64,000 nucleotides of DNA from Alphaproteobacteria bacterium (GCA_013911655.1 JACESU010000001.1:256063-320062); one strand, 5' to 3'. Numbered from the stretch's first letter, positions 30,540 to 50,367 are shown. Numbers and translations are program-made. The notes: generated by a model not told the origin, from the letters alone.

Positions 30540-30564
30540 TTTTAATAGGGTCACTCTTTATACG

Positions 30565-31011: not shown

Positions 31012-31895
31012 GTGGTAAAAGTCTCTCAAAAGAAGGTCATACTCTTTGGGGGGAGATTCAAAAGGCGCAACATAAATTCTCAAAAGAGAAAACCGTGTTT
31101 CCCGTCCGCATGCAAGTGCGCGCTGCTCTTTTTTGTTTAACGGAGTTGAACGCCCTGATCCAAGAAGATGCAAGTATCAGAAACGCCCTTAAACGTCACG
31201 GCGAGACGGCACAAAAAGAAGCGGCCTTTATACTGATCACGCGCTTCAAATCAAGACTTTTTCCCGAAAGCGATATGGATATGAAAGAGTGGTTAGGGGC
31301 AACCGATCACGTGCATTTGTCGGCGGTCCTGATCAAGAACGTTTTTCCTAAACTGGACCAAAGTGCTTTCTTGGTGCCGGATATTCAGAAGATTTTGGAA
31401 GAAAATCCTGACATCAGAGCCCTCTTTGAAAAAGGGACACCAGCAGATCTTATACGGTGCGCGCGTATGCTGATTAACCATCATAAGCAGGTTCTTTTTC
31501 AGGGGACAGATAGAGACAACGTGGGTCTAGAGGCGCTTTTGGTCGAGACGCTTCTACCCAAAGTGACCTTGGCCCCACGCCCCCTTTTAAATGACGAGAG
31601 TGCTGCGCGCGTGAAAACCCTTATCTATAACAGGCTCGGGATTCTTTTGCGCGAACAAGCCAAAGGTGTTGCTGATTTTCAAAAAAAAATCCCTGACTTT
31701 GATTTGGATAATGACGCGCATTTGGCCCTACTTTCTGGAAAAATCTTCACGTCTTTTGAGAAAGATCTTTTTGAACTTTTGAAAGAAAACAACGTGCTGA
31801 ATGCTCAAATTAAAGCCTTTGATACGCGCAAACGTCAAGAGATGGTTGAGGCGTGCCTCAAAGCTATGTTAATGGATTTGGATGACGATATTTAA
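30984..31895 (+). CDS. hypothetical protein (303 aa)
   Basis: ATG-start ORF, helical-looking, no family recognised. Confidence 0.4.
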   Translation: MRQTSKIRVSGKSLSKEGHTLWGEIQKAQHKFSKEKTVFPVRMQVRAALFCLTELNALIQEDASIRNALKRHGETAQKEAAFILITRFKSRLFPESDMDMKEWLGATDHVHLSAVLIKNVFPKLDQSAFLVPDIQKILEENPDIRALFEKGTPADLIRCARMLINHHKQVLFQGTDRDNVGLEALLVETLLPKVTLAPRPLLNDESAARVKTLIYNRLGILLREQAKGVADFQKKIPDFDLDNDAHLALLSGKIFTSFEKDLFELLKENNVLNAQIKAFDTRKRQEMVEACLKAMLMDLDDDI

Positions 31896-36847: not shown

Positions 36848-38044
36848 TTACTTTATCATATTAAAGAGTTCACACACCATAATCATGACACCAACAAGGG
36901 CACACACGCCAATCAAAGGGGTGCGGCGTAAGACCGGATAAAACCATGTGTTAAAACGTCCCTGACGCAAAAGGTATGCGGGCATCAAGATCGCAATAAC
37001 CGCAAGGACCATTCCGGCAAACCCCAGCATCCCAAGAAAGATGTTGGGAATAAAGACGACCATCAAATATGCCGGCAGAAGGGTGAAGGTTACTGCCAAA
37101 AGTTGCCGGATAAAAGGCGAGGAGATGGACTTTGTCATCATTTCTTGAAGCGATTCACAAAGACCCACACCAACTCCTAAAACAGAGGTGACGATGGCCA
37201 AAAGTGAAATCCACCACACAAGGATCTGGACGGCAGGCCACTGAGCAAGGTGGCTGAGTTCTTTGACGAGATCTCCCACATCGACTTTGCCCAAGGCCAT
37301 CTGCGTGTAAAAGTTTGGGACTTTGTGATAAATGACCCCCATGACGCTGCACGTCCACACGATGTAGACAAGGGCAGGAATAAGGCTTCCCCAAAAGAAC
37401 GCGCTTTTGAGCATACGGGCGTCTTTGTTGCAGTAGTTGGTCAGGGTATGAAAAATCACTTGAAATCCGAAAGACGTAAACACCACAGGGACCAGCACAC
37501 GCCATGAGGCAAGGTGTTCCACATGGGGCCCAAAAAGCGGCAGGTTTTCCCACGACATCATGGACACAAGACCGCCCACTAAGACCGTGACAACAGCGAG
37601 AAGCGCAATGAAGAGAACCCTGTTCACATAGTCGATCACCTTAATAGGGAGCATCAGCACAAAGCCGGCCCCTAAAGCGTAGCAAGACACAAGGGTGGTG
37701 GTAGAGCCTTTTTGAGTTAGAAGTTTTTGAAGAACGCTCGCTCCCGCATACAAAAAGACCGCCAAGAGCGCGTAGGACAAGAACTTCAAAAGAAGGACGC
37801 CCAACGCCTCAGCGCCTCTGCCCGAAAAGCGTTTGCCAAGCTCTCCAAGACTAAGGCCCCGTCCTGCCTGCAGGTTAAGTTCAAGGCTAAAAAGAGAGGT
37901 AAAGTACATGACGCCCCAAATAAAGAGCATAAACAGGATGCTTGGAATAAGTCCTACGGCTGCTAGCACCATGGGAAGGGCGATCATGCCGCTCCCGATA
38001 CATGTTCCTGCGATCAAAAGGATCGCACCTGTTTTTTTATTCAT
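36848..38044 (-). CDS. aromatic amino acid permease (HAAAP family, TyrP/Mtr-like)
   Basis: The N-terminus GAILLIAGTCIGSGMIALPMVLAAVG matches the HAAAP signature. About 11 TM segments, 398 aa. Confidence 0.8.
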   Translation of the reverse strand: MNKKTGAILLIAGTCIGSGMIALPMVLAAVGLIPSILFMLFIWGVMYFTSLFSLELNLQAGRGLSLGELGKRFSGRGAEALGVLLLKFLSYALLAVFLYAGASVLQKLLTQKGSTTTLVSCYALGAGFVLMLPIKVIDYVNRVLFIALLAVVTVLVGGLVSMMSWENLPLFGPHVEHLASWRVLVPVVFTSFGFQVIFHTLTNYCNKDARMLKSAFFWGSLIPALVYIVWTCSVMGVIYHKVPNFYTQMALGKVDVGDLVKELSHLAQWPAVQILVWWISLLAIVTSVLGVGVGLCESLQEMMTKSISSPFIRQLLAVTFTLLPAYLMVVFIPNIFLGMLGFAGMVLAVIAILMPAYLLRQGRFNTWFYPVLRRTPLIGVCALVGVMIMVCELFNMIK

Positions 38045-38240
38045 GTTCCTTTCCTCTATTATTAGGTTAAAAGCCTTTTACTCTATAGGGCTTCATCATA
38101 AATTGCCAAGGAAATGTGAGGGGGGGAATGGGTCCTTTTTTGACAAAAGACGCCCCATAAACATCATGGGGTAAACCCGCTCGTCAAGGCTCAAGACAAA
38201 AGCTTGATTTTTTAGAGGCGAGTATGAGATACTCCGCCCT

Positions 38241-38339
38241 GGGAAGGTCAGGCCTGGGGTGGACCTCACATGAACTCGGTCAGGTCCGGAAGGAAGCAGC
38301 CGTAATGTATCTTGGTACAGGTCTGGGTCTGGCCTTCTC
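38241..38339 (+). ncRNA. ffs: signal recognition particle RNA (4.5S-type)
   Basis: Contains the invariant domain IV sequence GGTCAGGTCCGGAAGGAAGCAGCC. The 5' GGGAAGGTCAGGCC pairs with the 3' GGTCTGGCCTTCTC (with G-U pairs) to close the helix. Confidence 0.8.
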
Positions 38340-38378
38340 AGTTTCTTTATTCTTCTGATAAAGTCCAGACCGACTTGG

Positions 38379-39725
38379 TTAAGCTGTAGGTGCTTTTTCT
38401 TTAATCAATGTTTGGGAATCTTGATTTTCTTTCAACCGTTTTAGCACACGAGCGCGCTTGTTTTGGCCGGGTTTGTCTAATTTGGGGCATATTTTCATAA
38501 AATTCTTTTCTATGCAAAGAACAGACGGCATGTAAAGGCGCACGGACGTAAGATGAGGCGCATCATAACAAAAATTCTCCCTGATGTGGGTTAGGGCCGG
38601 GAAACGAAGGGCGGCTGATCCCGCTTTTATGGAGCTTAGGGCGTTCGCTCCTAACTCTTTTAGACAAGGAAAATAGAGATTCAGTGTTTGGACAGTGAGG
38701 TTAGAGGCGAAACCAGCGCCAATGTGAGTGAGCACAGGGCAATTCATCCTAACGCGATCAATGGTGGCGCCAGTAAGGCAGCTGTGCTTGATGGTTGTGA
38801 GCACGGGAAAATACCTGAAATCCACGGAATGAAGCGCGCTAGAGAAAAGAAAACTCCGCCCTAATGTGTGAATAATTTTTTGAGGGTCCGATAAAATCAA
38901 ATGGTATTTATTTTCAAAAATCCCGTCCATAAAATAAAAAACACCAGGATTAATATAGGGTGTCTGTTCGATGCTTTGATGCAGAGAGTGTTGATCATGG
39001 GTTTGCAAAAGTGCGTGAACAGAGGTTTTATGCGCGATTCTTTCTTCTGTTGTCAGGGCAAAAATATGGGAGTCCTCTTTAAAAGAGTCGCAAATTAAGT
39101 CTTTTGAAAAGCGGATGAGACGAGGGTTTTGCTTGAGCGTTTGTAAAAACGTCAGGGCGCGCGCCTTGGCCGCTGCGTTTTTTGGGTTAAAAACCACCCG
39201 GGACCAGGGAAGGACGGATTCCAAGCACAAAAGATCTTGGGACGAGAGCGCCTCTTTATGCTCACGAAAAACATGGGCGTAAAGAGTTGGTAGAAGGGGC
39301 TTTATTTCATCGTTGGTAAAGGGGCGGCTGTCTTTGGGAAAGGTTTCCTGCCTGAGAGGGACAAAAGCAAAGCCATTTTTTTTATATATTTTGTTGATAT
39401 AAGTTGGCAGGCGCGTTGGTGACAAGCGCACGGACCATCCGCTCAGCTCATGAAGCATGAGCCACGCTTCAGTTTCTAGGGCTTGTGTGACGATCTCTTC
39501 TTTTGCGTGGTGCCATGCTTTGCAGACCCGAGAAGCCTTTAAAAGGTCTCGCACCGGAAGCCCTTGAAAGATTAAAGGCGTGAGATCGCGAGGGAGGTGA
39601 GTGAGGACGGCGTGTTCTTCTTGATCCGTATCTGTTGTAGGGTTTGATGAGGCGGCGCACGGGGGCACGGTGATGAACCCTAGACCCAGGCATACGAGGG
39701 TGAAGAAAGAAAAAAGTTTTTTCAT
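38379..39725 (-). CDS. secreted F-box-like / BspA-type LRR protein, paralog 1 (448 aa)
   Basis: AAGGAG SD. Signal peptide MKKLFSFFTLVCLGLGFITVPPCAAS. F-box-like LPRDLTPLIFQGLPVRDLLKASRVCKAWHHA. Family core QDLLCLESVLPWSRVVF. C-terminal repeats of the FPxLxxIxxxFxxxCxxL type. Confidence 0.7.
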   Translation of the reverse strand: MKKLFSFFTLVCLGLGFITVPPCAASSNPTTDTDQEEHAVLTHLPRDLTPLIFQGLPVRDLLKASRVCKAWHHAKEEIVTQALETEAWLMLHELSGWSVRLSPTRLPTYINKIYKKNGFAFVPLRQETFPKDSRPFTNDEIKPLLPTLYAHVFREHKEALSSQDLLCLESVLPWSRVVFNPKNAAAKARALTFLQTLKQNPRLIRFSKDLICDSFKEDSHIFALTTEERIAHKTSVHALLQTHDQHSLHQSIEQTPYINPGVFYFMDGIFENKYHLILSDPQKIIHTLGRSFLFSSALHSVDFRYFPVLTTIKHSCLTGATIDRVRMNCPVLTHIGAGFASNLTVQTLNLYFPCLKELGANALSSIKAGSAALRFPALTHIRENFCYDAPHLTSVRLYMPSVLCIEKNFMKICPKLDKPGQNKRARVLKRLKENQDSQTLIKEKAPTA

Positions 39726-40154
39726 ATGAATCTCCTTAAATAATAAGAATCCATTGTCTTAAAAAGTATTTATTGTCAATGTGTTAATTTTAAATGAGAT
39801 GTACCTAGGACGGTGATGGTTAAAGATGTGCACGTACTCCTTTTTAAAAAGAGAAAGTTTGAAAAGACTTTTTTTATTTTGTTCGATATTTTCTGAATAC
39901 TGTATACTTTTGTGTTGCTCAAACTCACCTAAGGTCATGACGAAGGGGGAAGGCGCCTGTATAAATAAACCTTCTTTTAAACGCGACGAAAAACGATGAC
40001 CGGCAGGACATCATGGTGAGGGTGGACCATGATCTGACCCAGGATGCCCCCTTTGTTGCGCGTTGAGGCGATGCAAGACAGGGAAACATAAGGCTAATCC
40101 CTTTTAAGAATGTTGCCACGAGAGTAAGAGTTAGCGTCCATCAGGGGGTGAGGA

Positions 40155-41573
40155 TCAAGCCGCGTTTGCGGTGTTTTCTTGTGCGGGGTGTGCCTCTTTC
40201 AGGGTCTTGGCAAGGTGTTCTTTTGTTTCAGGTGTGAGGGCTGGACACAGATCAATAAATCTGTTCCCCACATAAGACGGCTGAGGTGTTTCATAGAATC
40301 TGACCGAGGAGAGCTCTGGGCAACTGTAACAAAACTCTCTTCCTATATGGACAAGGCTCGGAAACTCAAACGTGGCCTTCTTAATATTTGTGTATGAGAA
40401 GCAGTTTTTATTGATGAAAGTGAGAGAAGGAAGTGCGAGCCTTAAAGGCGTAGTGTTGTTGAGTACAGCATATGACAACGTGTCATTACCCAAATTAGTG
40501 AGAACAGGCAAATGCGCCCTCAAAGAAGTAAGGCGTCCATTGTATAAAAAACCTTCCCCCAATAGCTCAAGGTTTGGCAGATGAAGGATGACCTTTGTCA
40601 CATAGGCGTACGCTAGAAAATCCTCGTCTGCTTGGGTAAGCGAGGGAAATTGTTTTAAAGAGATTGATTTTTGATTTCTGTAGCCACTTAGAAACTCACG
40701 TTCTAGGTGTGTGACCGTTCCTTTGGGATCAAGAAGCGTCAGATGTCCTGTGTTGGGGAGGTCGGTGCGTGATAAAGAAAAACCTCCGTTGGTCACAAAG
40801 ACCCCCTCTTCTGCTACCACATAAAAAGCGTGATCTATGTGAGTTTCAAGAAGGGTTAAAAGATGCGCTTTGTGTTGAGAAAGCTCATCCGTTGTTAGCA
40901 CAAAGGTATATGCCTCATCTTTGTAGAAATCTGGGGCGAGGGTTGGCGAGAAGCGCACGAGTTGTGGGCTCTTTGCCACGTCCTTGAGGAAGGTCAGGGC
41001 ACGGGCTTTGGCGTCTTTTTTTGTAGGATCAAAGATCATGCGGGACCAAGGCAGAACGGCCTCGAGGCACAGGATATCCTGAAAGGAAAAAGAGTCTTTT
41101 TGTGCCTGAAAAGCGCACGTGTAAAGTGTTGGAATATGAGGCTCTATGTCGGCCTCGTCAAGAGGCACGCTGCCTTCTAGAAAAACATGCTGTTTATAAG
41201 GCATAAAAGCAAAGCCATGTGCGTCATAAAGGTTTTGTAGGGTTACTGTTAAAAGGGTATCGGGCAGCCGCTTGGACCATTTTTTGTGATCATAAAGCAT
41301 GAAATGCCCTTCACTTTTGAGGGCGTGTTCTAGGTAGGGTTGTTGCGTATCGTGCCAGGCCTTGCAGACTTGAGTCGCTCGAAAAAAAGTCTTCACAGGC
41401 AGACCGGAAAGAACACACGGAAACACGTCGCGTAAGAAGTGCTTGTTGACAAAAGGGCTTTCTTTATCATCCTCGTGAGAGAAATGAGAAGCTGTCACAG
41501 GGGAGAGTATCGTAAGCGTAAAAGCGCTTAGGAGTACGGCTCCATAAAAGAGTATTCTTTTCACAGGGTGCAC
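40155..41573 (-). CDS. secreted F-box-like / BspA-type LRR protein, paralog 2 (472 aa)
   Basis: GTG start. Signal-like N-terminus. FLRDVFPCVLSGLPVKTFFRATQVCKAWHDT. Core QDILCLEAVLPWSRMIF. LRR-like C-terminus. Confidence 0.65.
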   Translation of the reverse strand: MHPVKRILFYGAVLLSAFTLTILSPVTASHFSHEDDKESPFVNKHFLRDVFPCVLSGLPVKTFFRATQVCKAWHDTQQPYLEHALKSEGHFMLYDHKKWSKRLPDTLLTVTLQNLYDAHGFAFMPYKQHVFLEGSVPLDEADIEPHIPTLYTCAFQAQKDSFSFQDILCLEAVLPWSRMIFDPTKKDAKARALTFLKDVAKSPQLVRFSPTLAPDFYKDEAYTFVLTTDELSQHKAHLLTLLETHIDHAFYVVAEEGVFVTNGGFSLSRTDLPNTGHLTLLDPKGTVTHLEREFLSGYRNQKSISLKQFPSLTQADEDFLAYAYVTKVILHLPNLELLGEGFLYNGRLTSLRAHLPVLTNLGNDTLSYAVLNNTTPLRLALPSLTFINKNCFSYTNIKKATFEFPSLVHIGREFCYSCPELSSVRFYETPQPSYVGNRFIDLCPALTPETKEHLAKTLKEAHPAQENTANAA

Positions 41574-41594
41574 TATAAAAATTGAAATCAGTTT

Positions 41595-41624
41595 TATATG
41601 GAGGGATTAAAGATTTATTGTCAA
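41595..41624 (-). promoter_or_regulatory. sigma70-like promoter candidate for paralog 2
   Basis: On the minus strand: TTGACA (41624-41619), an 18-nt spacer, then CATATA(AA). Confidence 0.45.
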
Positions 41625-41692
41625 TAAAATAAACTTTCTGTTTCAAGGTATTCTTTCTATTTTAAGGGATGAGAAATCTCGCAAGGGGCGCG

Positions 41693-43255
41693 TTAGTATA
41701 GTCGTCTTTCTGCTTCACCAAAGTTTATATAATGAAGTGATAAGGCAAGGTCACGTTCGGCGTCTGTGCCCCTTTGAACCTGTTCTGCTAGGTCTGGGTT
41801 TTGCGCTAAATACCTTCCCGGCGAAAAAAGAGCTGGCAAGTCAAGGGTGTAAAGTCTATTTTCCGTTGGCTGGTTGTGCGCAAAATACTGAAGGGCATAG
41901 GCCTCAGGATCACTGTGTCGCAGGGATTCCTCTTGAATATCTGGGTTCAAGAGAAGGTAAATGGCAAGATCAAAATCTTCTGGCAATTTGTAGATAAGGC
42001 CCTGTTTGCACCCCATCTCTTGATAATGATCGCAGGCGTAGGTGATGGGATCAAATCCATGGGTCAAGGCGCGCGCCCTCAGATGGGGATGATAAAGAAG
42101 ATAAATCTCTGCAGAGAAATCCTCGGGAAGGGCGGCATGCCGTTCAACAGGGCCTTCTTGCTGGTCACGTCGCACTTTGACGGCGTCTTTAAACGTGTTG
42201 ATCTGGTGTTTAAGCGCGTCGTTAAGGACGAGTGCCTCATTGAGTATGGGCGCACCAACGCTGATAACTGCGCCAAGGCCCCTTGTGTCAAACGTCTGAA
42301 GCTCGAGACAGTCAAATAAGGAAAAGGACTCCATGTGGGTAAGGGCGTTCAGGTCCCGTGCATCCAAAGACTGCAACAGCTTGAAAGGTGAAAAACAGAG
42401 ATTTCCCATTTTGTGGACAACCCCTTCAGGGTCCGACAGGATCAGATGACGAAGGGACGGTAGGGCTGCTTTATAAAAAGAAAGACGCCCATTGTTTACA
42501 TAAAACCCATTCTCCATCACAAGATGAACGCGGTGATTTGTGTGACTTTTAAGAAGGCTTTCAAGCGCCTCCTTGTGTGCTGCGAGTTCACTTGTTGTCA
42601 GGACAATGGTAGGGGTTTCTTCTTTAAGCGCGTCAGGCAACAACGTAGGGGAGAAACGCACAAGGGATTTGTTGGGGTGGACACGCAACAGAGAACGCAC
42701 AGCCTCACGTTTTGAGGGAAGGTGATGCAAGGGAACCGCCATGCGCTGCCAGGGAAGAACGGCTTTAAGACACAAAAGGTCTTGGGGTGAAAGGGGGTCA
42801 GACGCCTTTCCAAATGCATGAAGATAAAGCTGCGGTAAAAGAGGGGCGACATCTCTCTCACGAAGGGGGATGCTTCCCGTGGGAAATGGTCTGTGTCCAA
42901 AGGGGACAAAGACGTAGCCGTCTTCTTGAAAAAGGTGAGTCAGAATAGAAGTCAAGAGATCACGCGGCAGGTTTTGTGACCATGCGCGCTGATCGTCAAG
43001 CATGTGAGCCCTCTCAAGGCGTATCTTATGATGTTGGTGATGTTTCATTGCTTGGTGCCATGCGTGGCAGACTCTTGAGAAAGGGTGGTGTGGGGGTAGG
43101 TTTTCTGTCACAAGGCAAAGGGTTTCTAAAGGCAGTAACGTTTGAGAAGAAGCGCAAACGTCATCGCGCTCAAGAGAGGATGCCGCGCATAAAGAAATTA
43201 AAACAAAATAACTGCTTAGTAATAAGGGTATAAAATAAGAAAGAAGCCTATTCAT
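41693..43255 (-). CDS. secreted F-box-like / LRR protein with triple C-terminal repeat, paralog 3 (520 aa)
   Basis: Signal peptide. LPLETLCLVTENLPPHHPFSRVCHAWHQA. Core QDLLCLKAVLPWQRM. Three C-terminal repeats of about 48 aa (F..(I/R)YL..(H/N)P(H/D)(L/I)...). Confidence 0.65.
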   Translation of the reverse strand: MNRLLSYFIPLLLSSYFVLISLCAASSLERDDVCASSQTLLPLETLCLVTENLPPHHPFSRVCHAWHQAMKHHQHHKIRLERAHMLDDQRAWSQNLPRDLLTSILTHLFQEDGYVFVPFGHRPFPTGSIPLRERDVAPLLPQLYLHAFGKASDPLSPQDLLCLKAVLPWQRMAVPLHHLPSKREAVRSLLRVHPNKSLVRFSPTLLPDALKEETPTIVLTTSELAAHKEALESLLKSHTNHRVHLVMENGFYVNNGRLSFYKAALPSLRHLILSDPEGVVHKMGNLCFSPFKLLQSLDARDLNALTHMESFSLFDCLELQTFDTRGLGAVISVGAPILNEALVLNDALKHQINTFKDAVKVRRDQQEGPVERHAALPEDFSAEIYLLYHPHLRARALTHGFDPITYACDHYQEMGCKQGLIYKLPEDFDLAIYLLLNPDIQEESLRHSDPEAYALQYFAHNQPTENRLYTLDLPALFSPGRYLAQNPDLAEQVQRGTDAERDLALSLHYINFGEAERRLY

Positions 43256-43293
43256 AAGAACAAGGGAAGGTTAACGAGTGAAAAGTATTCTCT

Positions 43294-43322
43294 TATATGA
43301 AAGTGTTTTGACTTTTTGTCAA
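43294..43322 (-). promoter_or_regulatory. sigma70-like promoter candidate for paralog 3
   Basis: On the minus strand: TTGACA (43322-43317), a 17-nt spacer, then CATATA. Confidence 0.45.
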
Positions 43323-43397
43323 CAATAAGAGATGTAGTTTCATGAAAGTTTTTTCTTTGGGGTCTTTGCGCAAAATGCTTGAAAGAAGGCAGGCGCT

Positions 43398-44534
43398 TTA
43401 CAAGCGCGGGTCAGCCTTTTTAAGAAAGTCAGCAATCTTAGGCCAATTTTCGGCCAAGGGCTTTGTTCCCATAAAAAGGCCAATATGCCCCCCCGTGGCT
43501 AAATCTTGATGAAGGTCCTTTTGAGGGGTGCCAAAGTAAAGAGATGCATTAAAAACTTGAATGGAGGGCGTAATGTCGTCTTTATCCCCTGCCAAAAGAT
43601 AAACAGGACATGTGATGGTCTTAGGGTCTAGCTGTCGTCCAAGGGCCACGAATTTGCCGTTCGCAAATTGATTTTCAATAAACAGCTCTTTAACCGCTTG
43701 CAAGTACCAGCGACCAGGCAGATCGAGGGTCGCTTCGTACCACCGCTCAAAGATTTCGGTGCGCTCGACATAGGTTGGATCTTCAATATGTTCGTAAAGG
43801 CGCACATACTTATCAAGATATTGTTCTTTGGGGTGCATGCTTTTAAATCCTTGGAGCATGTATTCCCCGCGCAAAAGGCCGCCGCCCTTGGCAACCAGCT
43901 TTTCGTAAAAGGAAAAAGGCAGGGTGTTGACATAATGTTTGATGGCCCCGTCACCTGCTTGGGTATCAATGGGGGCGCCCGCGATCGTGAGGCTTTGCAC
44001 ATTTTGCGGAAAGCGCGCCGTATAAAGACTTGCAAACCACCCCCCTTGGCAAAGTCCAATCAGATGGACAGGCGCGCCAAGATCGCTCACGACTGTATGC
44101 AGTTCAGCCAAGTAATGGTCAATATCCAGATCCTTCATATCAGGGGTGGCGCTATGCCATTCGGTCGCAAAAACGCGCTCGATGCCATGGTGGAGGAGAA
44201 CATCGACAAGGCTTTGTTTTTGATGAAAATCCGCGATCGTTGAGGTATGGCCCGCATAGGGGGGCAAAATTAAAGTGGGATGTTGAGAGGACGAATTTTT
44301 TTTAGAAAAATCTCTAAGGGTCAACGTGCGAAGAGAATACAGCACCTTGTTAGCGCTCGCCCATTGGGGTTTGGGACGAATTTTTTGAGTGAGAATCACC
44401 TCATCAAGGAACTTAAGATTTTTACGTTCAAGGTCTAAGAGCTCTTTCCCCGCCTGCAGGGCAAAGCCGAGGGGCCAGAAAAAAGGAATCTCCATCTCAC
44501 ACGGCGGCGGTGCTTTTTTATCATCCGTTGACAT
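43398..44534 (-). CDS. class III PHA synthase (PhaC)-like alpha/beta hydrolase
   Basis: VHLIGLCQGGWFASLYTARFPQNVQSLTIAGAPID has the Cys-type lipase box seen in class III PhaC (my recollection of Allochromatium: LLGICQGG). ITCPVYLLAGDKDDI and GGHIGLF also match. 378 aa. Confidence 0.6.
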   Translation of the reverse strand: MSTDDKKAPPPCEMEIPFFWPLGFALQAGKELLDLERKNLKFLDEVILTQKIRPKPQWASANKVLYSLRTLTLRDFSKKNSSSQHPTLILPPYAGHTSTIADFHQKQSLVDVLLHHGIERVFATEWHSATPDMKDLDIDHYLAELHTVVSDLGAPVHLIGLCQGGWFASLYTARFPQNVQSLTIAGAPIDTQAGDGAIKHYVNTLPFSFYEKLVAKGGGLLRGEYMLQGFKSMHPKEQYLDKYVRLYEHIEDPTYVERTEIFERWYEATLDLPGRWYLQAVKELFIENQFANGKFVALGRQLDPKTITCPVYLLAGDKDDITPSIQVFNASLYFGTPQKDLHQDLATGGHIGLFMGTKPLAENWPKIADFLKKADPRL

Positions 44535-44616
44535 ATGTCTGTTCCTGTTAAGGGAGGTAATAGTGCTATTCTACGCTATAGAAAGGGCCACGTCACATAA
44601 TAACGCGCATGCCTTT

Positions 44617-44661
44617 AGAAAAAGAAAAAGGCCTCGTCCCGTGAAGGAGCGAGACCTTTTT
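44617..44661 (-). terminator. bidirectional-looking terminator downstream of paralog 4
   Basis: Imperfect stem of about 10 bp (ggcctcgtcc / ggagcgagacc) flanked by an A-run and a T-run. On the minus strand the hairpin is followed by TTTTTCTTTTTCT. Confidence 0.6.
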
Positions 44662-44675
44662 GATCAAAAAAAGTT

Positions 44676-46484
44676 TTAAAATTTCCGCCCCTCATGCTGC
44701 CCGTGGCGGGTATAATGGATTTTAAGTTTTAGATCTCGTTCTCGCACGGTGTTGCTTTTAGCATATGCTTCAAGATCGGGATTATGCGCGAGATATCCTG
44801 CAGGGGTAAACCCTTCGGGTGTATGGAATTGATAAATCCTATTTTCTTTTGTGCCAAAGATCATAAAGTGCCACAGGGCAAAACGATACGGGTTTTTTTG
44901 GGTGTATGCGACCTCTTTTATATCAGGATTAAACAGAAAATAAATGGGCGCCTCAAAATCGTTTGGTTTTCTACAGGGAAGGTTTTGATCCATTCCCTGA
45001 GAAATATAATGGGTTTTTGCATATTTTTCTGGATCAAGGCTTTGTGCTTCGGCATGGGCCAGAACATCGGGGTGGTAAACCAAATAAGCGTCAGCCGAAA
45101 ACCAGATTGGTAGGTAGTAGCTGTCAGGTAGTCTTGTGTTAGTCCGTTTCTCCATTTCACGGTAGAACGCGCAAAGGCGGCGGTGAAATGTTTCTGGGTC
45201 CACGCCGCTATGCTTAAAAGGAAGCTCTCTGATTTCCGTAACAGAGGTCAGATGGCTAAGGTCAATATTCTTAAGCTTGAGTGCAGGACAATCGCTGACA
45301 AAACCCCCATCAAGAAATTCAACAGCGCCAAATGCCCTAAGGTTTAGCTGTTCCAAAGAAGGGTTTGAACATATAAAGGAACCTCTGATTATTTTTGTGT
45401 TTTCAAGTCCTCTGCTGTCAAAGCAAGTTGTTGATTTGTTTAAGTAAAAAAAGGACTCACGGATTTCTTTGACAGAGCTGAAGCCTCGGTTGTTGATGGA
45501 TACGAGGGCAGGGCATTGGCTGGCAAACCCACGCTCAATCACCTTCACGGTATTGAGGCCTCTTGGATCAAGCGTTTGAAGATGTTCATGTCGACGAAGA
45601 AAAAACTTGCCAATTATTTTGACGAGACCCTTGGGATCGGAAAGAGACAAATGACGAACTTCTGCAATGTTTTCTTTCTTTAAAGAAAGGGTTTTATCCT
45701 TCACAAAGGTACCTTTTTCCACCAGAAGGTGAACACGATGATGGGGATGAGTTTTGGCAAAGGCGTTGACAGCCTCATGATGGGCTGCAAGTTCTTCGGT
45801 CGTGAGGATCAGGGTGTGGGGAGTTGCTTTAAAATCCTCAAGTTTTAAATCAGGCAAAAACCGCACAAGAGAGGTGTTTTGCGGGATATCCGTCAAGCAG
45901 GCCAGGGCTTTTTTCTTGGATGCGGCATCCCCTTCTTTGAAGACAACGCGCGACCAAGGAAGGACCGCCTCGAGACACAACAGATCCCGGGGGGAAAGGG
46001 CGTCGTTCTTGCTGCCAAAGGCGTGGGTGTAAAGAGCGGGGAAAAGGGCTTCTACATCCTCAAAGCTTAAAGGCACACTGCCCGCCGGAACGCCTGGGTG
46101 TACGAAGGGGATAAAAGCAAAACCGTCGCTTTGTAGGAGGTCGTTAAGTGCCTGAGAGAGCTTAGAGGCTGACAGCATGCTGGACCAATGATGCTCGTCA
46201 TAAAGCATGAGCGTCCGTTCGTTTTGAAGGGCTGGGATAGAATGTTTTTCATAAGTGTTTGTAAACGCTTTGCAGGTACGGGCAAAACTAATAAAATCGT
46301 GAGCTGATAGATGACTCAGGATCAAAGGAACAACATCCGCTGGTATGGTAGGTGCGATGTGTGTTGTGTTTGGTTCTTCTTGGGCGTCAAGCACAGTAGA
46401 AGAGGCTTTGCATGTGGACAGATCTAGAAAGTTTAGCCCTGCGAATAAAAGAGCAAGAGAAAAGACGACATGTTTTTTTGTCAT
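44676..46484 (-). CDS. secreted F-box-like / LRR protein with triple C-terminal repeat, paralog 4 (602 aa from the ATG at 46484)
   Basis: AAGGA SD 9 nt before the ATG at 46484. Signal peptide MTKKHVVFSLALLFAGLNFLDLSTCKAS. IPADVVPLILSHLSAHDFISFARTCKAFTNT. Core RDLLCLEAVLPWSRVVF. LRRs, then three C-terminal repeats. Confidence 0.7.
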   Translation of the reverse strand: MTKKHVVFSLALLFAGLNFLDLSTCKASSTVLDAQEEPNTTHIAPTIPADVVPLILSHLSAHDFISFARTCKAFTNTYEKHSIPALQNERTLMLYDEHHWSSMLSASKLSQALNDLLQSDGFAFIPFVHPGVPAGSVPLSFEDVEALFPALYTHAFGSKNDALSPRDLLCLEAVLPWSRVVFKEGDAASKKKALACLTDIPQNTSLVRFLPDLKLEDFKATPHTLILTTEELAAHHEAVNAFAKTHPHHRVHLLVEKGTFVKDKTLSLKKENIAEVRHLSLSDPKGLVKIIGKFFLRRHEHLQTLDPRGLNTVKVIERGFASQCPALVSINNRGFSSVKEIRESFFYLNKSTTCFDSRGLENTKIIRGSFICSNPSLEQLNLRAFGAVEFLDGGFVSDCPALKLKNIDLSHLTSVTEIRELPFKHSGVDPETFHRRLCAFYREMEKRTNTRLPDSYYLPIWFSADAYLVYHPDVLAHAEAQSLDPEKYAKTHYISQGMDQNLPCRKPNDFEAPIYFLFNPDIKEVAYTQKNPYRFALWHFMIFGTKENRIYQFHTPEGFTPAGYLAHNPDLEAYAKSNTVRERDLKLKIHYTRHGQHEGRKF

Positions 46485-46728
46485 AAAATCATCCTTTGGT
46501 TTAAAAAGATAGAAATTACTTTTGAGGTGTGCTTCTTTTTTTGTCAATAAAAAACCCTCTCGTCTGTGAGGGCGTTTGTTGAAAAAGAAGGTGGTGTCGT
46601 GCTATTTAAGATTAAAGCTCTCTGTTTAATGTATGATGATGAGTTGAGTTTATGAATCATCATTTAGTTTATGACAATAAAAGTAGTAATTGGCTACATT
46701 ATTTTGGTGTAAGTTGTTTTTTATGCTT

Positions 46729-46770
46729 GTAAAAAATAGGCAGCACCTTCACAAGTAAAAGCGCTGCCTA
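46729..46770 (-). terminator. terminator candidate downstream of paralog 5
   Basis: 8-bp perfect stem taggcagc / gctgccta followed on the minus strand by TTTTTT. Confidence 0.55.
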
Positions 46771-46797
46771 AGGAAAAGAGGCAGGTTAGCCTTAGAA

Positions 46798-48657
46798 CTA
46801 GAACTGACGTCCTTCGTGTTGACCATAGCGCGTATAGTGAACCTTGAGTTTGTTGTCTCGTTCTTTTTCAGCACCACTCCTCGCATAGTCTTCAAGGTCT
46901 GGATTTTTGGCAAGATATCCAGCGGGTGTGAAATGACGCGGTAACTCAAATTTATATAATCGTCCTTCTTTTGCTGCATGGGTGATGAAGTGCCAGATGG
47001 CAAACGCGTGAGGATCCTTTTGTGAGAGAGCCACTGTTTTGATGTCATCGTTGAACAAAAAGTATGTTTCGACGTCAAAATCACTAGGAGGTCTGTATCG
47101 ACGCACCTCTTTAAAACCGTATTCACGGTAGTGTTCCTGAGCAAAGTAAAGAGGGTTAATTCCCTGAGAGTTTGCGAATGTTTGAATGTCGGGATTATAA
47201 AGCAGATAGGACGATGGTGAAAAAGAGCTTGGGACTTTCGTCAAGCTTGATATATAGCCCTCTGGTTTTGTCAAAACATGTTGATAAAAAGTGGCAAGTT
47301 GTTGTCGCGATGAATCATTAAGGCTACCGCGATTCAAAAAAGAATCATGTGTAACGCAAACAACGGCATTTAAATTCTTTATCTGCAAGGTTTCAAGTTC
47401 AGAACAATAGGTCATGAAATCACTCAGAGATCGCAGGGACGGTAAGCTTAAGATTGCAGAGCGGACAGATGATTCTGAAAGAGAATTGTAACCTATGCGG
47501 GTTAAGTTCGGACAATCTATGACCACAGCATTAAGAGTCGCCCTGTACAAAAGTCCCAGTTCTACAGTCTCCAAAGATGGAAACCTTAAGATCAAAGAAC
47601 TGTTTTCACTTTGAGGAAAAAAGGAAAATTCTAAAAAGTAGGAACCGATTGCGAGGAGTGTCGGGAAGTTTAATTTCAAATCAGCAATATGAGTATGTGC
47701 AAGAAAACTGCTTTTTACGGATCTCAAAGCTGGAAAATGTTTGAAATGTAAAAAGGAAATCTCTCTAGATTTATAAAGAAAATGATCATCTATTTCGATC
47801 ACAATTTTATGAGGATCCGACAACGTCAGATGACAGTTCCTTGTCATATCTTCGTTTGATAACTTAAAAGATCCGTTTTGAACAAAGCCTCCTTCTTCTG
47901 CGACTAAGTGGACGTGGTGAAAGGAGGGCGTTTTTAAGAGCGCGTCTAAGGCGTCCTTGTGATCACGAAGTTCTGTTGTGGTAAGAACAAAAGTATGGGG
48001 ATCTTGCTCAAAAGCGGTAACGGGCAAATCTGGCGTAAAGCGTACTAAGTGAGGATTTTTCTGCGTGCCTTGTAGCAAGGCGAGCGCCTTTTGTTTGGCA
48101 TCAGGTTTTGTGGGATTATAGGCCATGCGCTGCCAGGGAAGGACAGCCTCGAGGCATAAAAGATCCTGGGGAGAGAAAGTCGTCTTTTTCCCATGAAAGG
48201 CATGTTTGTACAATCTAGGGATAAGAGAAGCCACATCCTCAGTCGTTAAGGTTTGGCTTCCTTTTGGAAAGAGATACTGCTCAAATAGCATGAAGACAAC
48301 GCCGTTTTGGACGTAGGTGTTTTGCCCTTGGGTGACAAAGTACGGCGCTGAGAGATGGTCTGTTTTATGATCAAACAATACAGCTGTCTGCGCGCGATGA
48401 AACATCTTGTTTAAAGAGAGCCCTTGAGCGTTTTGCCACGTTTTGCAAACGGCTGCGACGTGCCCCGTGTCCTGCCAAGAGAGGTACCTTATCGCAAGAG
48501 GCAAAACATCACGAAAAGCGGGCGATGCAAAAGATAGATGCTGTTCTTGATCATCAAAGTTAGGATTAGAAGCTGCCGCAGGTGTGAGGCACGCAAGACT
48601 TGCGCCTGTGAGCAAAAGGGCCAACCGAGAGACAATTGTTTTCATCAAAATGCTCAT
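46798..48657 (-). CDS. secreted F-box-like / LRR protein with triple C-terminal repeat, paralog 5 (about 619 aa)
   Basis: The start is at the ATG at 48657 or 48645, downstream of its own promoter. Signal peptide (MSIL)MKTIVSRLALLLTGASLACLTPAAAS. AFRDVLPLAIRYLSWQDTGHVAAVCKTWQNA. Core QDLLCLEAVLPWQRMAY. Confidence 0.7.
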   Translation of the reverse strand: MSILMKTIVSRLALLLTGASLACLTPAAASNPNFDDQEQHLSFASPAFRDVLPLAIRYLSWQDTGHVAAVCKTWQNAQGLSLNKMFHRAQTAVLFDHKTDHLSAPYFVTQGQNTYVQNGVVFMLFEQYLFPKGSQTLTTEDVASLIPRLYKHAFHGKKTTFSPQDLLCLEAVLPWQRMAYNPTKPDAKQKALALLQGTQKNPHLVRFTPDLPVTAFEQDPHTFVLTTTELRDHKDALDALLKTPSFHHVHLVAEEGGFVQNGSFKLSNEDMTRNCHLTLSDPHKIVIEIDDHFLYKSREISFLHFKHFPALRSVKSSFLAHTHIADLKLNFPTLLAIGSYFLEFSFFPQSENSSLILRFPSLETVELGLLYRATLNAVVIDCPNLTRIGYNSLSESSVRSAILSLPSLRSLSDFMTYCSELETLQIKNLNAVVCVTHDSFLNRGSLNDSSRQQLATFYQHVLTKPEGYISSLTKVPSSFSPSSYLLYNPDIQTFANSQGINPLYFAQEHYREYGFKEVRRYRPPSDFDVETYFLFNDDIKTVALSQKDPHAFAIWHFITHAAKEGRLYKFELPRHFTPAGYLAKNPDLEDYARSGAEKERDNKLKVHYTRYGQHEGRQF

Positions 48658-48682
48658 AATATTAGATGTGTTTTTTTTTGCT

Positions 48683-48711
48683 TTTATAGAAAGTATGTGA
48701 TTTTGTGTCAA
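48683..48711 (-). promoter_or_regulatory. sigma70 promoter candidate for paralog 5
   Basis: On the minus strand: TTGACA (48711-48706), a 17-nt spacer, then TATAAA (48688-48683). This is the best consensus match of the five paralog promoters. Confidence 0.6.
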
Positions 48712-49260: not shown

Positions 49261-50367
49261 GCGTCATCGTCTCCTAGGCGTGCAGCAAGCGCTGCTTCTA
49301 GGTACGGATCAAGATCGCCGTCAAGAACGCCCTGGGCGTTGCCACGCTCGACCCCTGTGCGCAAATCTTTCACCATTTGATAGGGGTGAAGCACGTACGA
49401 GCGAATCTGGTGACCCCACCCTATTTCAGATTTTTGGGCGTTGGTCGCGCGCGCCGCGTCCTCACGGGCTTGAAGCTCACGTTCGTAAAGGCGCGAGCGT
49501 AGCATCGCCATGGCTTGGGCTTTGTTTTTGTGCTGAGAACGTTCGTTTTGGCATTGCACCACGATGTTGGTCGGAAGGTGCGTGATGCGAACGGCACTGT
49601 CTGTGGTATTGACGTGCTGGCCGCCAGCGCCTGACGAACGGTAAGTATCGATACGTAAGTCTTTTTCTTCGATGGCGATCTCAATGGCATCATCGACCAC
49701 GGGGTAAACACCGATGGAGGCAAAGCTTGTGTGGCGTCTGGCGTTGCTATCAAAGGGGGAAATGCGCACAAGTCGGTGGACGCCGCACTCAGTCTTGAGC
49801 CACCCAAAGGCCCGAAATCCTTTAACGCGCACAGTGCATGACTTGATACCTGCTTCTTCTCCCGCACTCTCCTCAATCCATTCAAGTTTGTATTTGTGCG
49901 CATCTGCCCATCTGGCGTACATGCGCTGGAGCATCAGCGCCCAGTCTTGCGCCTCGGTCCCACCAGCGCCTGCGTGGATTTCTAAAAAGCAGTCGTTGCC
50001 GTCGGCCTCACCGCTTAAGAGGCTTTCGATCTGGAGGCGGCGCGCTTCTTTTTGTAATGCCATCAGGCTTTCTTCGGCCTCCAGAACAAGGCCTTCCTCA
50101 TTTTCTTCTTCAGCCAGGGCGAGTAAGTCAACGGCATCCTTAAAACGGGATTCGAAGGCATCAAACTTACCCAGCGACGCGGCCAAGGTATCTCGCCTGC
50201 GCATAATTTCCTGGGCGCTTGCAGGGTCATTCCAAAGGTCTGGATCTTCTGCTTTTGTGTTTAGATCAACAAGAAGGGCGTGCGAGACGTCCCAGTCAAA
50301 GATGCCTCCGCAACAGGGCAAGACTTTGAGTGGTGGCATCAATACACTGAATCATTTCTGCTTTCAT
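49257..50367 (-). CDS. prfB: peptide chain release factor 2, expressed via programmed +1 frameshift (join 50367..50299 with 50297..49257)
   Basis: Frame 0 reads MKAEMIQCIDATTQSLALLRRHL and then TGA. Shifting +1 at CTT TGA C continues DWDVSHALL... The downstream frame has SPF (RISPFDS) and GGQ (GAGGQHVN). Confidence 0.92.
50296..50310 (-). other. RF2 programmed +1 frameshift site with internal SD-like element
   Basis: The minus strand reads CGG AGG CAT CTT TGA C. GGAGG sits 3 nt before the CUU-UGA-C slippery/stop context, as in E. coli prfB. Confidence 0.9.

What the first reader, a model, noticed from the sequence alone, without database searches (positions are those of the whole stretch)
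38379..48711. Cluster of five paralogous signal-peptide-bearing F-box-like + BspA-type LRR proteins
Five same-strand genes (38379-39725, 40155-41573, 41693-43255, 44676-46484, 46798-48657) share one architecture.
- Each starts with a Sec-type signal peptide.
- Next comes a roughly 35-aa stretch matching the eukaryotic F-box pattern LPxE(L/V)xxxIxxxLxxxDLxxxxxVCKxW. Examples are LPRDLTPLIFQGLPVRDLLKASRVCKAWHHA, IPADVVPLILSHLSAHDFISFARTCKAF and AFRDVLPLAIRYLSWQDTGHVAAVCKTWQNA.
- Then a family-specific core that I cannot assign to any family: QDLLCLEAVLPW(S/Q)R, L(V/I)RF(S/T/L)(P/K)(T/D)L, and LTT(E/S/D)EL..H(K/H).
- Finally leucine-rich repeats of the FPxLxxIxxxFxxxCxxL (BspA/LRR_5) kind.

F-box + LRR is the layout of eukaryotic FBXL substrate receptors and of Ralstonia GALA or Legionella F-box effectors. 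This makes the family a candidate set of SCF-ubiquitin-ligase mimics. Combining an F-box with a cleavable-looking Sec signal is unusual, because known bacterial F-box effectors are T3SS or T4SS substrates. It raises the question of how these proteins would reach a host cytosol. The DNA has diverged well beyond recent duplication, so the family looks old and maintained.
Basis: partly seen in the sequence, partly recalled or inferred. Interest (0 to 1): 0.8.

Follow-up and report, generated by a model that had tools for sequence, protein, structure and literature searches.

The report
Exported bacterial F-box/LRR protein family
An uncultured alphaproteobacterium carries a fast-evolving cluster of five genes whose proteins pair a bacterial export signal with a genuine eukaryote-type F-box and leucine-rich repeats, so they probably hijack a host cell's ubiquitin machinery by an unusual Sec-dependent route, though this has not been tested.

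Summary
Five minus-strand paralogs (30-36% identical) share a signal-peptide-like N-terminus, an F-box, a family-specific core of about 190 aa, and BspA-type LRRs.

- **F-box:** real. Pfam scores pass the gathering cutoff in P1 and P4. 25 of 38 family members hit it. A family F-box profile hits almost only F-box proteins in PDB (FBXW7 6.7e-9, Skp2, Legionella AnkB). AlphaFold gives three helices.
- **Signal peptide:** present in 33 of 38 family members. This rests on a heuristic, not SignalP.
- **Core:** no match by Pfam, PDB sequence or Foldseek.

- P3-P5 end in a triple YLxxNPD...HYxxxGxxEGR repeat that also occurs on RTX/T1SS-exported proteins.
- A decayed sixth paralog lies between P2 and P1.
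- An unrelated hydrolase gene sits inside the cluster.

The family is small (54 representatives among 1.84 billion proteins), found only in uncultured Alphaproteobacteria, multi-copy per genome, and turns over quickly.

The window's FliI/FliR are flagellar, and no injectisome was seen. A secretin and T2SS-E/F-like genes exist in the genome.

Best reading: Sec-dependent SCF substrate-receptor mimics. Skp1 binding, export and the host are all untested. This is a new variant of a known kind.

The parts
38379..39725 (-). P1, 448 aa: signal peptide, F-box, core, about 5 LRR units, C-terminal basic capping helix. NCBI already labels it 'F-box protein'.
   Evidence: ORF. Pfam F-box-like 32.8 bits, above the 24.3 cutoff. 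AAGGAG Shine-Dalgarno 7 nt before the ATG. AF2 models. Source name.
39651..39725 (-). P1 predicted Sec/SPase-I signal peptide (aa 1-25, MKKLFSFFTLVCLGLGFITVPPCAA|SS)
   Evidence: Heuristic only: n/h/c regions and the -3/-1 rule. No lipobox and no twin-arginine motif.
39462..39602 (-). P1 F-box (aa 42-88; LP at 44-45; VCKAW at 67-71)
   Evidence: Pfam. Family F-box profile against PDB. AF2 helices at 49-54, 58-66 and 69-88. Local superposition on Skp2, rmsd 1.7 A over 39 columns.
38856..39428 (-). P1 family-specific alpha/beta core (aa ~100-290; motifs GFAFVP, LPxLYxHAF, QDLLCLEAVLPWSR, LVRFSP, LTTxEL..HK, HLxLSDP)
   Evidence: pLDDT about 95. No Pfam, NCBIfam, PDB-sequence or Foldseek match. 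Not a detectable LRR. 54 representatives in 1.84 billion proteins.
38481..38855 (-). P1 BspA/LRR_5-type leucine-rich repeats (aa ~291-415, five beta-strand units)
   Evidence: AF2 strands at 297-305, 321-328, 344-351, 367-374 and 394-398. PDB 4gt6 at 7.7e-8. Foldseek hits to 4fs7 and TpLRR.
39906..40119 (-). Pseudogene remnant of a further paralog, the ortholog of L009 a442. Three fragments in three reading frames: signal-peptide h-region, start of the F-box, and core motif.
   Evidence: tblastn: 69-77% identity to a442 aa 8-20, 38-53 and 205-234. Translations.
40155..41573 (-). P2, 472 aa (GTG start; gene callers also give 469 aa). F-box at 41304-41438, with 'FL' in place of LP.
   Evidence: Ortholog in L009 is 78% identical, dN/dS 0.20.
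41693..43255 (-). P3, 520 aa. F-box at 43007-43135 (LP present, helix 2 is 2 aa shorter). Short LRR of the DxRGL subtype. C-terminal triple repeat.
   Evidence: Ortholog 76% identical, dN/dS 0.19.
41696..42145 (-). P3 C-terminal module: three units of about 48 aa, YLxxNPD...HYxxxGxxExR
   Evidence: Alignment A8.
44676..46484 (-). P4, 602 aa. F-box at 46215-46346 (IP; CKAF).
   Evidence: Pfam F-box 21.3 bits, above the 20.5 cutoff. AAGGA before the ATG. A terminator-like hairpin at 46554-46573 lies upstream, arguing against the longer TTG start.
44679..45128 (-). P4 C-terminal triple-repeat module
46798..48657 (-). P5, 619 aa (or 615 from the ATG at 48645). F-box at 48388-48519, with 'AF' in place of LP.
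   Evidence: Ortholog 80% identical, dN/dS 0.54 overall, LRR 0.97, F-box 0.13.
46801..47250 (-). P5 C-terminal triple-repeat module, shared with alphaproteobacterial RTX/T1SS proteins
   Evidence: tblastn against plasmids, E down to 7e-6. R. rubrum homolog lies beside HlyD/ABC T1SS genes. Motif verified.
46737..46770 (-). Terminator-like hairpin (15-bp stem plus T-run) directly after the P5 stop codon, so P5 is probably its own transcription unit
   Evidence: consensus scan only.

Best explanation
The five genes encode exported, host-directed F-box proteins.

Proposed mechanism:
1. Each protein is made with a cleavable Sec signal and crosses the inner membrane.
2. A second, unidentified step takes it beyond the outer membrane. 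This could be a secretin-based T2SS-like machine, outer-membrane vesicles, or surface display. In P3-P5, surface display might use the C-terminal YLxxNPD repeat module that is also found on RTX/T1SS exoproteins.
3. If the bacterium lives in the cytoplasm of a eukaryotic (probably protist) host, the N-terminal F-box docks onto host Skp1. The rigid core+LRR solenoid presents a host protein to the SCF ubiquitin ligase. That makes the family a set of substrate-receptor mimics with different specificities.
4. Birth-and-death evolution of the cluster and relaxed or diversifying change in the LRR reflect adaptation to host targets.

Shown: paralogy, F-box homology and predicted fold, BspA-type LRR, the family-wide signal-peptide-like N-terminus, a core with no known counterpart, fast turnover, and the link of the C-terminal module to exported proteins.

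Inferred: actual Sec export and cleavage, outer-membrane passage, the existence of a host, Skp1 binding, and ubiquitination.
For: F-box:
- Pfam scores above the gathering cutoff in P1 and P4, with hits at the homologous position in the other three.
- 25 of 38 family members hit F-box-like, best 1.9e-11.
- 39 of 40 PDB matches of the family F-box profile are F-box proteins, including Skp2 and the Legionella effector AnkB.
- AF2 gives three helices with pLDDT 76-92 within a model of pTM 0.86. The best local superposition is on the Skp2 F-box.
- The only established partner of F-boxes is eukaryotic Skp1 (established knowledge; AnkB example in PMC2790608).

Export:
- 33 of 38 family members have signal-peptide-like N-termini with a conserved C-x-A|S c-region.
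- The C-terminal module recurs in RTX proteins, one of which is encoded next to its T1SS.
- The LRR type is that of bacterial surface proteins (4gt6 'cell surface protein').

Route:
- FliI and FliR in the window are flagellar.
- A secretin is present in the window, and T2SS-E/F-like genes lie near the sixth paralog.
- Sec-dependent effectors acting on cytoplasmic host targets are documented for an intracellular alphaproteobacterium that lacks T3SS and T4SS (PMC11414923).

Effector-like evolution:
- dN/dS is 0.19-0.54, against 0.008-0.17 for neighbouring genes. P5 LRR is 0.97 while its F-box is 0.13.
- Flanking genes are 92-98% identical to those of relatives, yet the paralog repertoire differs: 5 genes plus a pseudogene here, 6 in L009, and 3 (one split) in L005.
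- The family is multi-copy at several loci per genome.
Against: - No SignalP run and no experimental evidence of export.
- The host is unknown and the lineage is unplaced. Obg is 80% identical to an unnamed MAG and only about 70% to Holosporales, Rhodospirillales and Paracaedimonas.
- The genome keeps flagella and chemotaxis genes, so an obligate intracellular life is not established.
- P2 and P5 lack the LP dipeptide required for Skp1 binding in AnkB. Three of the five window proteins are individually below Pfam's cutoff.
- The Foldseek matches are not statistically significant (best E 0.59 in PDB and 0.06 in BFVD).
- The secretin and T2SS-E/F genes could equally belong to a type IV pilus.
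- The mature proteins hold 6-9 cysteines. This fits an oxidising extracytoplasmic location as well as a cytosolic one.
Confidence: 0.55

Rival explanations
1. These are exported BspA-like surface or periplasmic adhesins. The LRR and the C-terminal repeat mediate attachment to a host or prey surface, or to the bacterium's own envelope glycans. The F-box-derived three-helix bundle is only an N-terminal structural cap or oligomerisation module that never meets Skp1.
For: - The LRR type matches bacterial cell-surface proteins (4gt6, 4fs7, TpLRR).
- A Sec-type signal places the protein outside the cytoplasm.
- The C-terminal module is shared with extracellular RTX proteins, two of which are encoded beside surface-glycan genes (rfbC; pseC/flippase).
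- The LP dipeptide is degenerate in P2 and P5.
- Motility and chemotaxis genes suggest an extracellular phase.
Against: - The F-box signature is kept across a deep family: LPxE..I..L...VCKxW in 25 of 38 members, best 1.9e-11.
- The P5 F-box is under the strongest constraint of any P5 domain (omega 0.13).
- No Skp1-independent role for an F-box in a bacterial envelope is known (own knowledge).
Confidence: 0.25
2. The N-terminal hydrophobic stretch is not a cleaved Sec signal. It is either an uncleaved membrane anchor, or a segment used after delivery by another, unseen system such as a T4SS or T1SS encoded elsewhere in the genome, for example to tether the F-box protein to a host or vacuolar membrane.
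For: - Cleavage is only predicted from the -3/-1 rule.
- Only 64 kb of a genome larger than 1.4 Mb was visible, so T4SS or T1SS genes cannot be excluded.
- AnkB works while anchored at a membrane (PMC2790608).
Against: - The n/h/c architecture is classical: a short h-region of 12-16 aa, helix-breaking P/G/S, small-x-small, and then an acidic linker.
- That architecture is conserved in 33 of 38 members.
- The h-region is shorter than a typical transmembrane helix (own knowledge).
Confidence: 0.12
3. This is a decaying or non-functional gene family, or a gene-calling artefact with no current function.
For: Gene decay is visible: a pseudogene remnant between P2 and P1, a split gene in L005, and an N-terminally truncated member in L009.
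Against: - All five ORFs are intact.
- dN/dS is well below 1 overall (0.19-0.54).
- 1:1 orthologs are kept in a second genome.
- The architecture is conserved across 54 representatives.
- The AF2 models are confident.
Confidence: 0.03

Closest known systems
Ralstonia GALA/RipG effectors (F-box + LRR, type III-secreted)
   Same: A bacterial multigene family with an N-terminal F-box followed by LRRs. RipG effectors are proposed SCF substrate-receptor mimics that act collectively (PMC13243912 abstract).
   Different: - The LRRs here are LRR_5/BspA type. No GA.ALA motif is present.
- A core of about 190 aa with no known counterpart lies between the F-box and the LRR.
- A Sec-type signal peptide replaces a T3SS signal.
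- FliI/FliR in the window are flagellar and no injectisome was seen.
Legionella pneumophila AnkB/LegAU13 (F-box + ankyrin, Dot/Icm T4SS)
   Same: A bacterial F-box acquired from eukaryotes. AnkB is itself hit by the family F-box profile (5k35_A, 3.2e-5). The host range includes protists (PMC2790608).
   Different: - The substrate-binding part is ankyrin repeats rather than LRRs.
- Delivery is by T4SS, with no signal peptide.
- AnkB depends on the LP dipeptide, which P2 and P5 lack.
Eukaryotic FBXL proteins (Skp2, FBXL2/3/5)
   Same: The order is F-box then an LRR solenoid. These are among the best PDB sequence matches (FBXL5 2.8e-8, Skp2 9e-7). The Skp2 F-box gives the best local structural superposition.
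   Different: - FBXL LRRs are the cysteine-containing alpha/beta type. Here the LRRs are LRR_5.
- FBXL proteins have no signal peptide and are cytosolic or nuclear.
- The core domain has no counterpart.
BspA-like LRR_5 surface proteins (Tannerella BspA and Treponema LrrA by own knowledge; structures 4gt6, 4fs7, 6mlx TpLRR)
   Same: The LRR subtype is the same and the proteins are exported with a signal peptide. The PDB profile hit to 4gt6 is 7.7e-8, and Foldseek hits 4fs7 and 6mlx.
   Different: As far as I know, none of these carries an F-box or the core domain.
Ca. Liberibacter asiaticus Sec-dependent effectors (SDEs)
   Same: An alphaproteobacterium that delivers signal-peptide-bearing effectors to host cytoplasmic targets without T3SS or T4SS (PMC11414923). 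This is the closest functional precedent for the proposed route.
   Different: SDEs are small, unrelated proteins. As far as I know, none is an F-box protein.
Alphaproteobacterial RTX proteins with tandem F[DN]xxxYLxxNPDV...HYxxxGxxEGR repeats (e.g. R. rubrum WP_011387748, Azospirillum WP_109086710)
   Same: They share the repeat unit of the P3-P5 C-terminal module, and they are exported proteins (T1SS genes are adjacent).
   Different: - They carry RTX nonapeptides. The window proteins carry none.
- Their repeat unit is about 40 aa, against about 48 aa here.
- Their repeats sit at the N-terminus or internally, not at the C-terminus.

Membership tests
F-box domain (Pfam PF00646 / PF12937) | Sequence match to the curated HMM at or above the gathering score | tested here: met
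   P1 scores 32.8 bits (cutoff 24.3) and P4 scores 21.3 bits (cutoff 20.5). P2, P3 and P5 are below the cutoff but hit at the homologous position. 25 of 38 family members hit at E<=0.01, best 1.9e-11. 39 of 40 PDB matches of the family profile are F-box proteins.
F-box domain (Pfam PF00646 / PF12937) | Three-helix F-box fold | tested here: inconclusive
   AF2 gives three helices at P1 residues 49-54, 58-66 and 69-88 with pLDDT 76-92. The Skp2 F-box superposes at 1.7 A over 39 columns with probability 0.85. However, every Foldseek E-value is above 0.05, and the first shallow-alignment model was poor in this region.
F-box domain (Pfam PF00646 / PF12937) | Conserved LP dipeptide at the start of helix 1, required for Skp1 binding in AnkB (PMC2790608) | tested here: inconclusive
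   LP in P1 and P3, IP in P4, FL in P2, AF in P5. The P2 and P5 variants are conserved in their L009 orthologs.
F-box domain (Pfam PF00646 / PF12937) | Binds Skp1 and assembles into an SCF ligase | not testable with these tools
   Needs pull-down or two-hybrid assays, or a multimer structure prediction. Only single-chain prediction was available.
BspA-type LRR (Pfam LRR_5, PF13306) | HMM match at or above the gathering score | tested here: inconclusive
   Window proteins are below the cutoff (P2 23.1 and P5 14.0 bits, cutoff 27.7). Relatives in the same family are clearly positive (15 of 38, best 5.1e-15). The family profile hits the BspA-like structure 4gt6 at 7.7e-8.
Eukaryotic FBXL / Ralstonia GALA F-box-LRR proteins | LRRs of the FBXL cysteine-containing type or the GALA type (GAxALA consensus) directly following the F-box | tested here: not met
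   There are no GA.ALA motifs. The LRRs match LRR_5. A non-LRR core of about 190 aa intervenes (hhalign core against LRR, probability 0.2%). FBXL2 matches the profile only through the F-box and weak LRR similarity.
Sec/SPase-I secretory proteins | N-terminal n-, h- and c-regions with small residues at -3/-1 | tested here: met
   A heuristic hydropathy and motif analysis finds this in all five proteins and in 33 of 38 family members. SignalP was not available, and cleavage was not tested.
Bacterial lipoproteins (SPase II) and Tat substrates | Lipobox [LVI][ASTVI][GAS]C, or a twin-arginine motif | tested here: not met
   Neither motif occurs in any of the five N-termini.
RTX / T1SS substrates | GGxGxD nonapeptide repeats (Pfam HemolysinCabind) and an uncleaved C-terminal signal | tested here: not met
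   There are no GG.G.D motifs and no HemolysinCabind hit. Only the YLxxNPD repeat is shared with RTX proteins.
T3SS (injectisome) effectors | An injectisome is present in the genome | tested here: inconclusive
   The T3SS-type genes in the window are flagellar: FliI_clade3 scores 601 bits (cutoff 587), and FliR scores 163.8 (cutoff 168.6) against 87.6 for SctT. The rest of the genome could not be inspected.

The most novel reading that the evidence does not exclude
This would be a T3SS/T4SS-independent way of hijacking the eukaryotic SCF ligase. A cytoplasm-dwelling alphaproteobacterial symbiont exports F-box receptors through Sec plus an outer-membrane step. It releases them or displays them on its own surface, in P3-P5 through the C-terminal RTX-associated repeat module. 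The bacterial surface thereby becomes an SCF recruitment platform. A structurally new core+LRR_5 solenoid acts as the substrate-binding unit.
Probability: 0.2. Interest if true: 0.8.

Novelty: new variant of a known kind. Interest (0 to 1): 0.6.

Why it matters
All characterised bacterial F-box effectors that I know of are injected by T3SS or T4SS.

A deep, multi-copy family in which a Sec-type signal peptide is as conserved as the F-box itself would extend ubiquitin-ligase mimicry to the Sec-dependent effector model, so far described mainly for Liberibacter and phytoplasmas. It would also point to an unrecognised host association for an uncultured freshwater alphaproteobacterial lineage.

The family also supplies two uncharacterised modules:
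- a confidently modelled alpha/beta core of about 190 aa with no structural neighbour;
- a YLxxNPD...HYxxxGxxEGR repeat that matched no Pfam model here and also occurs on RTX exoproteins.

Finally, the birth-and-death dynamics of the cluster make it a compact natural system for studying the diversification of effector specificity.

Tried and rejected
1. Foldseek with the full-length P1 model found only weak LRR hits (best E 0.013) and nothing for the core.
2. I tested whether the core is a cryptic irregular LRR, like the Skp2 linker. hhalign of the core profile against the family's own LRR profile gave probability 0.2%, the same as a reversed-sequence control. Rejected at the sequence level.
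3. The large-database search with the C-terminal module returned no hits, not even the query's own proteins. The negative result is therefore uninformative. The metagenome scan with that module found only family members.
4. Core and C-terminal profiles against PDB sequences gave nothing.
5. The injectisome hypothesis raised by the nearby 'T3SS ATPase' was rejected, because it is flagellar FliI.
6. Lipoprotein, Tat, RTX and GALA motifs are absent.
7. Literature searches for the MAG, sample or assembly identifiers (HARO18, CoA8N, SAMN15220986, GCA_046316735) gave nothing relevant.
8. Obg-based placement of the organism was inconclusive.
9. A single-unit LRR HMM built from distant members detects units in P3 and P4 but not in P1, P2 or P5, so it was not used to count repeats.
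10. There is no rRNA in the window to use for taxonomy.

Full report
**1. What is there**

The region holds five intact ORFs on the minus strand:

| Gene | Coordinates | Length |
|---|---|---|
| P1 | 38379-39725 | 448 aa |
| P2 | 40155-41573 | 472 aa |
| P3 | 41693-43255 | 520 aa |
| P4 | 44676-46484 | 602 aa |
| P5 | 46798-48657 | 619 aa |

- They align end to end at 30-36% identity with 45 invariant columns.
- An unrelated PHA-depolymerase/synthase-like alpha/beta-hydrolase gene (43398-44534) lies between P3 and P4.
- No other paralog lies elsewhere in the window.
- Shine-Dalgarno sequences precede the ATGs of P1 and P4.
- A terminator-like hairpin upstream of P4 argues against its longer TTG start. 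A strong hairpin follows the P5 stop.

**2. Source and relatives**

- The window is from a metagenome-assembled 'Alphaproteobacteria bacterium' genome (locus tags H2057_, contig 784-976 kb).
- Obg is 80% identical to that of another unnamed MAG, and only about 70% to Holosporales, Rhodospirillales and Paracaedimonas. The lineage is therefore deep and unplaced.
- The window also encodes flagellar FliI and FliR, CheA/W/B/R and a TPR-secretin of ambiguous type.
- Syntenic clusters between ruvX and a Trp/Tyr permease gene exist in two related genomes.

**3. Domain by domain**

*Signal peptide.*
- All five proteins, and 33 of 38 full-length family representatives, have a basic n-region, a hydrophobic h-region of 12-16 aa, and a c-region ending in small-x-small, most often C-x-A|S. 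An acidic linker follows.
- There is no lipobox and no twin-arginine motif.
- This is a heuristic assessment. SignalP was not available.

*F-box.*
- Pfam scores pass the gathering cutoff in P1 and P4 and are sub-threshold at the same position in P2, P3 and P5.
- Across 38 family members, 25 hit F-box-like (best 1.9e-11) and 21 hit F-box.
- A profile of the F-box segment alone (29 sequences) matched 40 PDB sequences at E<=0.1. Of these, 39 are F-box proteins: FBXW7 6.7e-9, FBXL5 2.8e-8, Skp2 9e-7, FBXO42, FBH1, beta-TrCP, TIR1 and Legionella AnkB 3.2e-5.
- With a 38-sequence alignment, AlphaFold2 models P1 residues 36-300 at pLDDT 90.5 and pTM 0.86, with helices at residues 49-54, 58-66 and 69-88.
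- Foldseek finds nothing significant. Its top ranks in both PDB and the viral library are nevertheless nearly all F-box proteins. The Skp2 F-box superposes at 1.7 A over 39 columns.
- The LP dipeptide, whose mutation to AA abolishes AnkB-Skp1 binding (PMC2790608), is present in P1 and P3 and is IP in P4. It is FL in P2 and AF in P5, and these variants are conserved in their orthologs.

*Core.*
- Residues ~100-290 of P1 are modelled at pLDDT about 95 as an alternating alpha/beta domain that runs into the LRR.
- The core has no Pfam, NCBIfam, PDB-sequence or Foldseek match. It has no profile similarity to the family's own LRRs.
- In the 38-member alignment the nearly invariant positions are hydrophobic except for one histidine. 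This favours a scaffold over an enzyme, which is an inference.

*LRR.*
- Pfam LRR_5 is sub-threshold in the window proteins but clear in relatives (15 of 38, best 5e-15).
- The family profile hits a BspA-like cell-surface LRR structure (4gt6, 7.7e-8).

*C-terminal module (new).*
- P3, P4 and P5 end in three tandem units of about 48 aa, F....YL..NPD[ILV]...A..H[YF]...G..E.R.[YF].
- At 39-51% identity between the window paralogs, this module is better conserved than the rest of the protein.
- tblastn against plasmids finds the same repeat in RTX-type 'hemolysin-type calcium-binding' and 'M10 C-terminal domain' proteins of Azospirillum, Rhodospirillum, Methylobacterium and Rhizobium (E down to 7e-6).
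- The R. rubrum protein lies next to HlyD and ABC T1SS genes. The motif was verified by eye. Pfam recognises only the RTX part of those proteins.
- So this is an uncurated repeat class associated with exported proteins.

**4. Family size and distribution**

- An exhaustive profile search with the core domain against 1.84 billion representative proteins found 54 proteins at E<1e-3 and 16 at E<1e-30.
- Every named member comes from an uncultured Alphaproteobacteria or 'Proteobacteria' MAG.
- Distant members keep the same order of signal peptide, acidic linker, F-box, core and LRR.
- Each genome holds several copies at several loci. The window genome has a sixth intact member (H2057_05910) about 5 kb from T2SS-E/F-like genes.

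**5. Evolution**

- Between the window genome and its closest relative (L009), flanking genes are 84-99% identical (most 92-98%), with dN/dS of 0.008-0.17.
- P2-P5 orthologs are 76-80% identical with dN/dS of 0.19-0.54.
- In P5 the LRR has omega 0.97 while the F-box has omega 0.13.
- P1 has no ortholog in L009.
- Conversely, L009's sixth member survives in the window only as three frameshifted fragments in the P2-P1 gap (39906-40119).
- A third genome with about 93% identical PBP1A has only three members, one of them split, and none is more than about 45% identical overall to a window paralog.
- This is birth-and-death evolution under purifying but relaxed, and locally near-neutral or diversifying, selection. 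That pattern is typical of host-interaction genes, which is an inference.

**6. Interpretation**

- The F-box is genuine, and its only established partner is eukaryotic Skp1. The most likely function is therefore SCF substrate-receptor mimicry, with the core+LRR solenoid binding substrate.
- The Sec-type signal, the surface-protein LRR type and the RTX-associated C-terminal repeat all say that the proteins leave the bacterial cytoplasm.
- The window's T3SS-like genes are flagellar. The simplest route is then Sec plus a second step: a T2SS-like secretin system, outer-membrane vesicles, or surface display.
- That route would suffice if the bacterium lives free in a host's cytoplasm. Ca. Liberibacter asiaticus, which lacks T3SS and T4SS and relies on Sec-dependent effectors, is a precedent (PMC11414923).
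- Export, Skp1 binding and host association have not been shown.
- The main rival is a purely adhesive or envelope role in which the F-box-derived bundle is not used for Skp1 binding.

**7. Verdict**

- This is a new variant of a known kind (bacterial F-box effectors). It is distinguished by a family-wide Sec signal, LRR_5 repeats, a core domain with no known counterpart and a C-terminal exoprotein repeat.
- Automated annotation already calls P1 an 'F-box protein'. I found no publication on the family.

Noticed in passing
window 38244-38339 (+): The bacterial small SRP RNA gene (ffs; Rfam RF00169, 56 bits) lies 40 nt from the P1 stop codon, between the F-box cluster and the Trp/Tyr permease gene. 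This is probably coincidental.
   Followed up: no
window 39906-40119 (-): A frameshifted, internally deleted remnant of a further F-box paralog, the ortholog of L009 gene a442. In closely related contigs it is called as a 59-aa ORF. P1 has no counterpart in L009.
   Followed up: yes
window 43398-44534 (-): A PHA-depolymerase / class III PhaC-like alpha/beta-hydrolase gene (DUF3141, PHB_depo_C) is embedded in the cluster. It has no signal peptide and a dN/dS of 0.05. It is present at the same position in L009 and absent from the L005 cluster.
   Followed up: partly
window 46798-48657 compared with L009 10001-11851: P5 has a much lower synonymous divergence from its ortholog (dS 0.22) than the neighbouring genes do (dS 0.5-1.4). 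This hints at a more recent recombinational exchange of this gene between lineages.
   Followed up: no
window 50295-50301 (-): CTTTGAC lies in the 5' part of prfB. This is the canonical RF2 +1 programmed frameshift site, so it is an ordinary feature. It explains why the listed ORF starts at an internal TTG.
   Followed up: partly
window 8206-14689 (+): A TPR-secretin (676 aa) is ambiguous between GspD and PilQ and scores below every curated cutoff. It is followed by two large ORFs (687 and 603 aa) with no Pfam or NCBIfam match. This may be an unusual secretin-based apparatus or lineage-specific exported proteins.
   Followed up: partly
window 22086-24014 (-), 27976-31895 (+), 32469-33776 (-): Several sizeable ORFs (287, 336, 728, 303 and 435 aa) have no family assignment apart from a weak DUF1963 hit in the last. 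Homologs of the 728-aa and 303-aa ORFs keep their position in related genomes. They are candidate lineage-specific proteins.
   Followed up: no
L005 7641-9593; L009 8707-9729: Gene decay is visible in relatives. In L005, one member is split into 514-aa and 129-aa ORFs, with the C-terminal repeat module detached. In L009, a 340-aa member lacks the signal peptide, F-box and core.
   Followed up: partly
L019 (R. rubrum plasmid) 2896-6409; L020 (Azospirillum plasmid) 1-5749: The RTX proteins that share the YLxxNPD repeat are encoded beside surface-glycan genes (rfbC; pseC and a flippase). This hints that the repeat could bind envelope polysaccharide. None of the proteins carrying the repeat matched a Pfam model over it.
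   Followed up: no
window 38000-48000: The cluster has lower G+C (0.41-0.48) than the housekeeping genes on either side (0.51-0.53), although other parts of the window are equally low.
   Followed up: no
window proteins P1-P5, LRR regions: There are two LRR subtypes among the paralogs. P3 and P4 carry the 'DxRGL..V..I...F' unit typical of the distant family members. P1, P2 and P5 carry a more divergent 'FPxLxxIGxxF' unit.
   Followed up: partly
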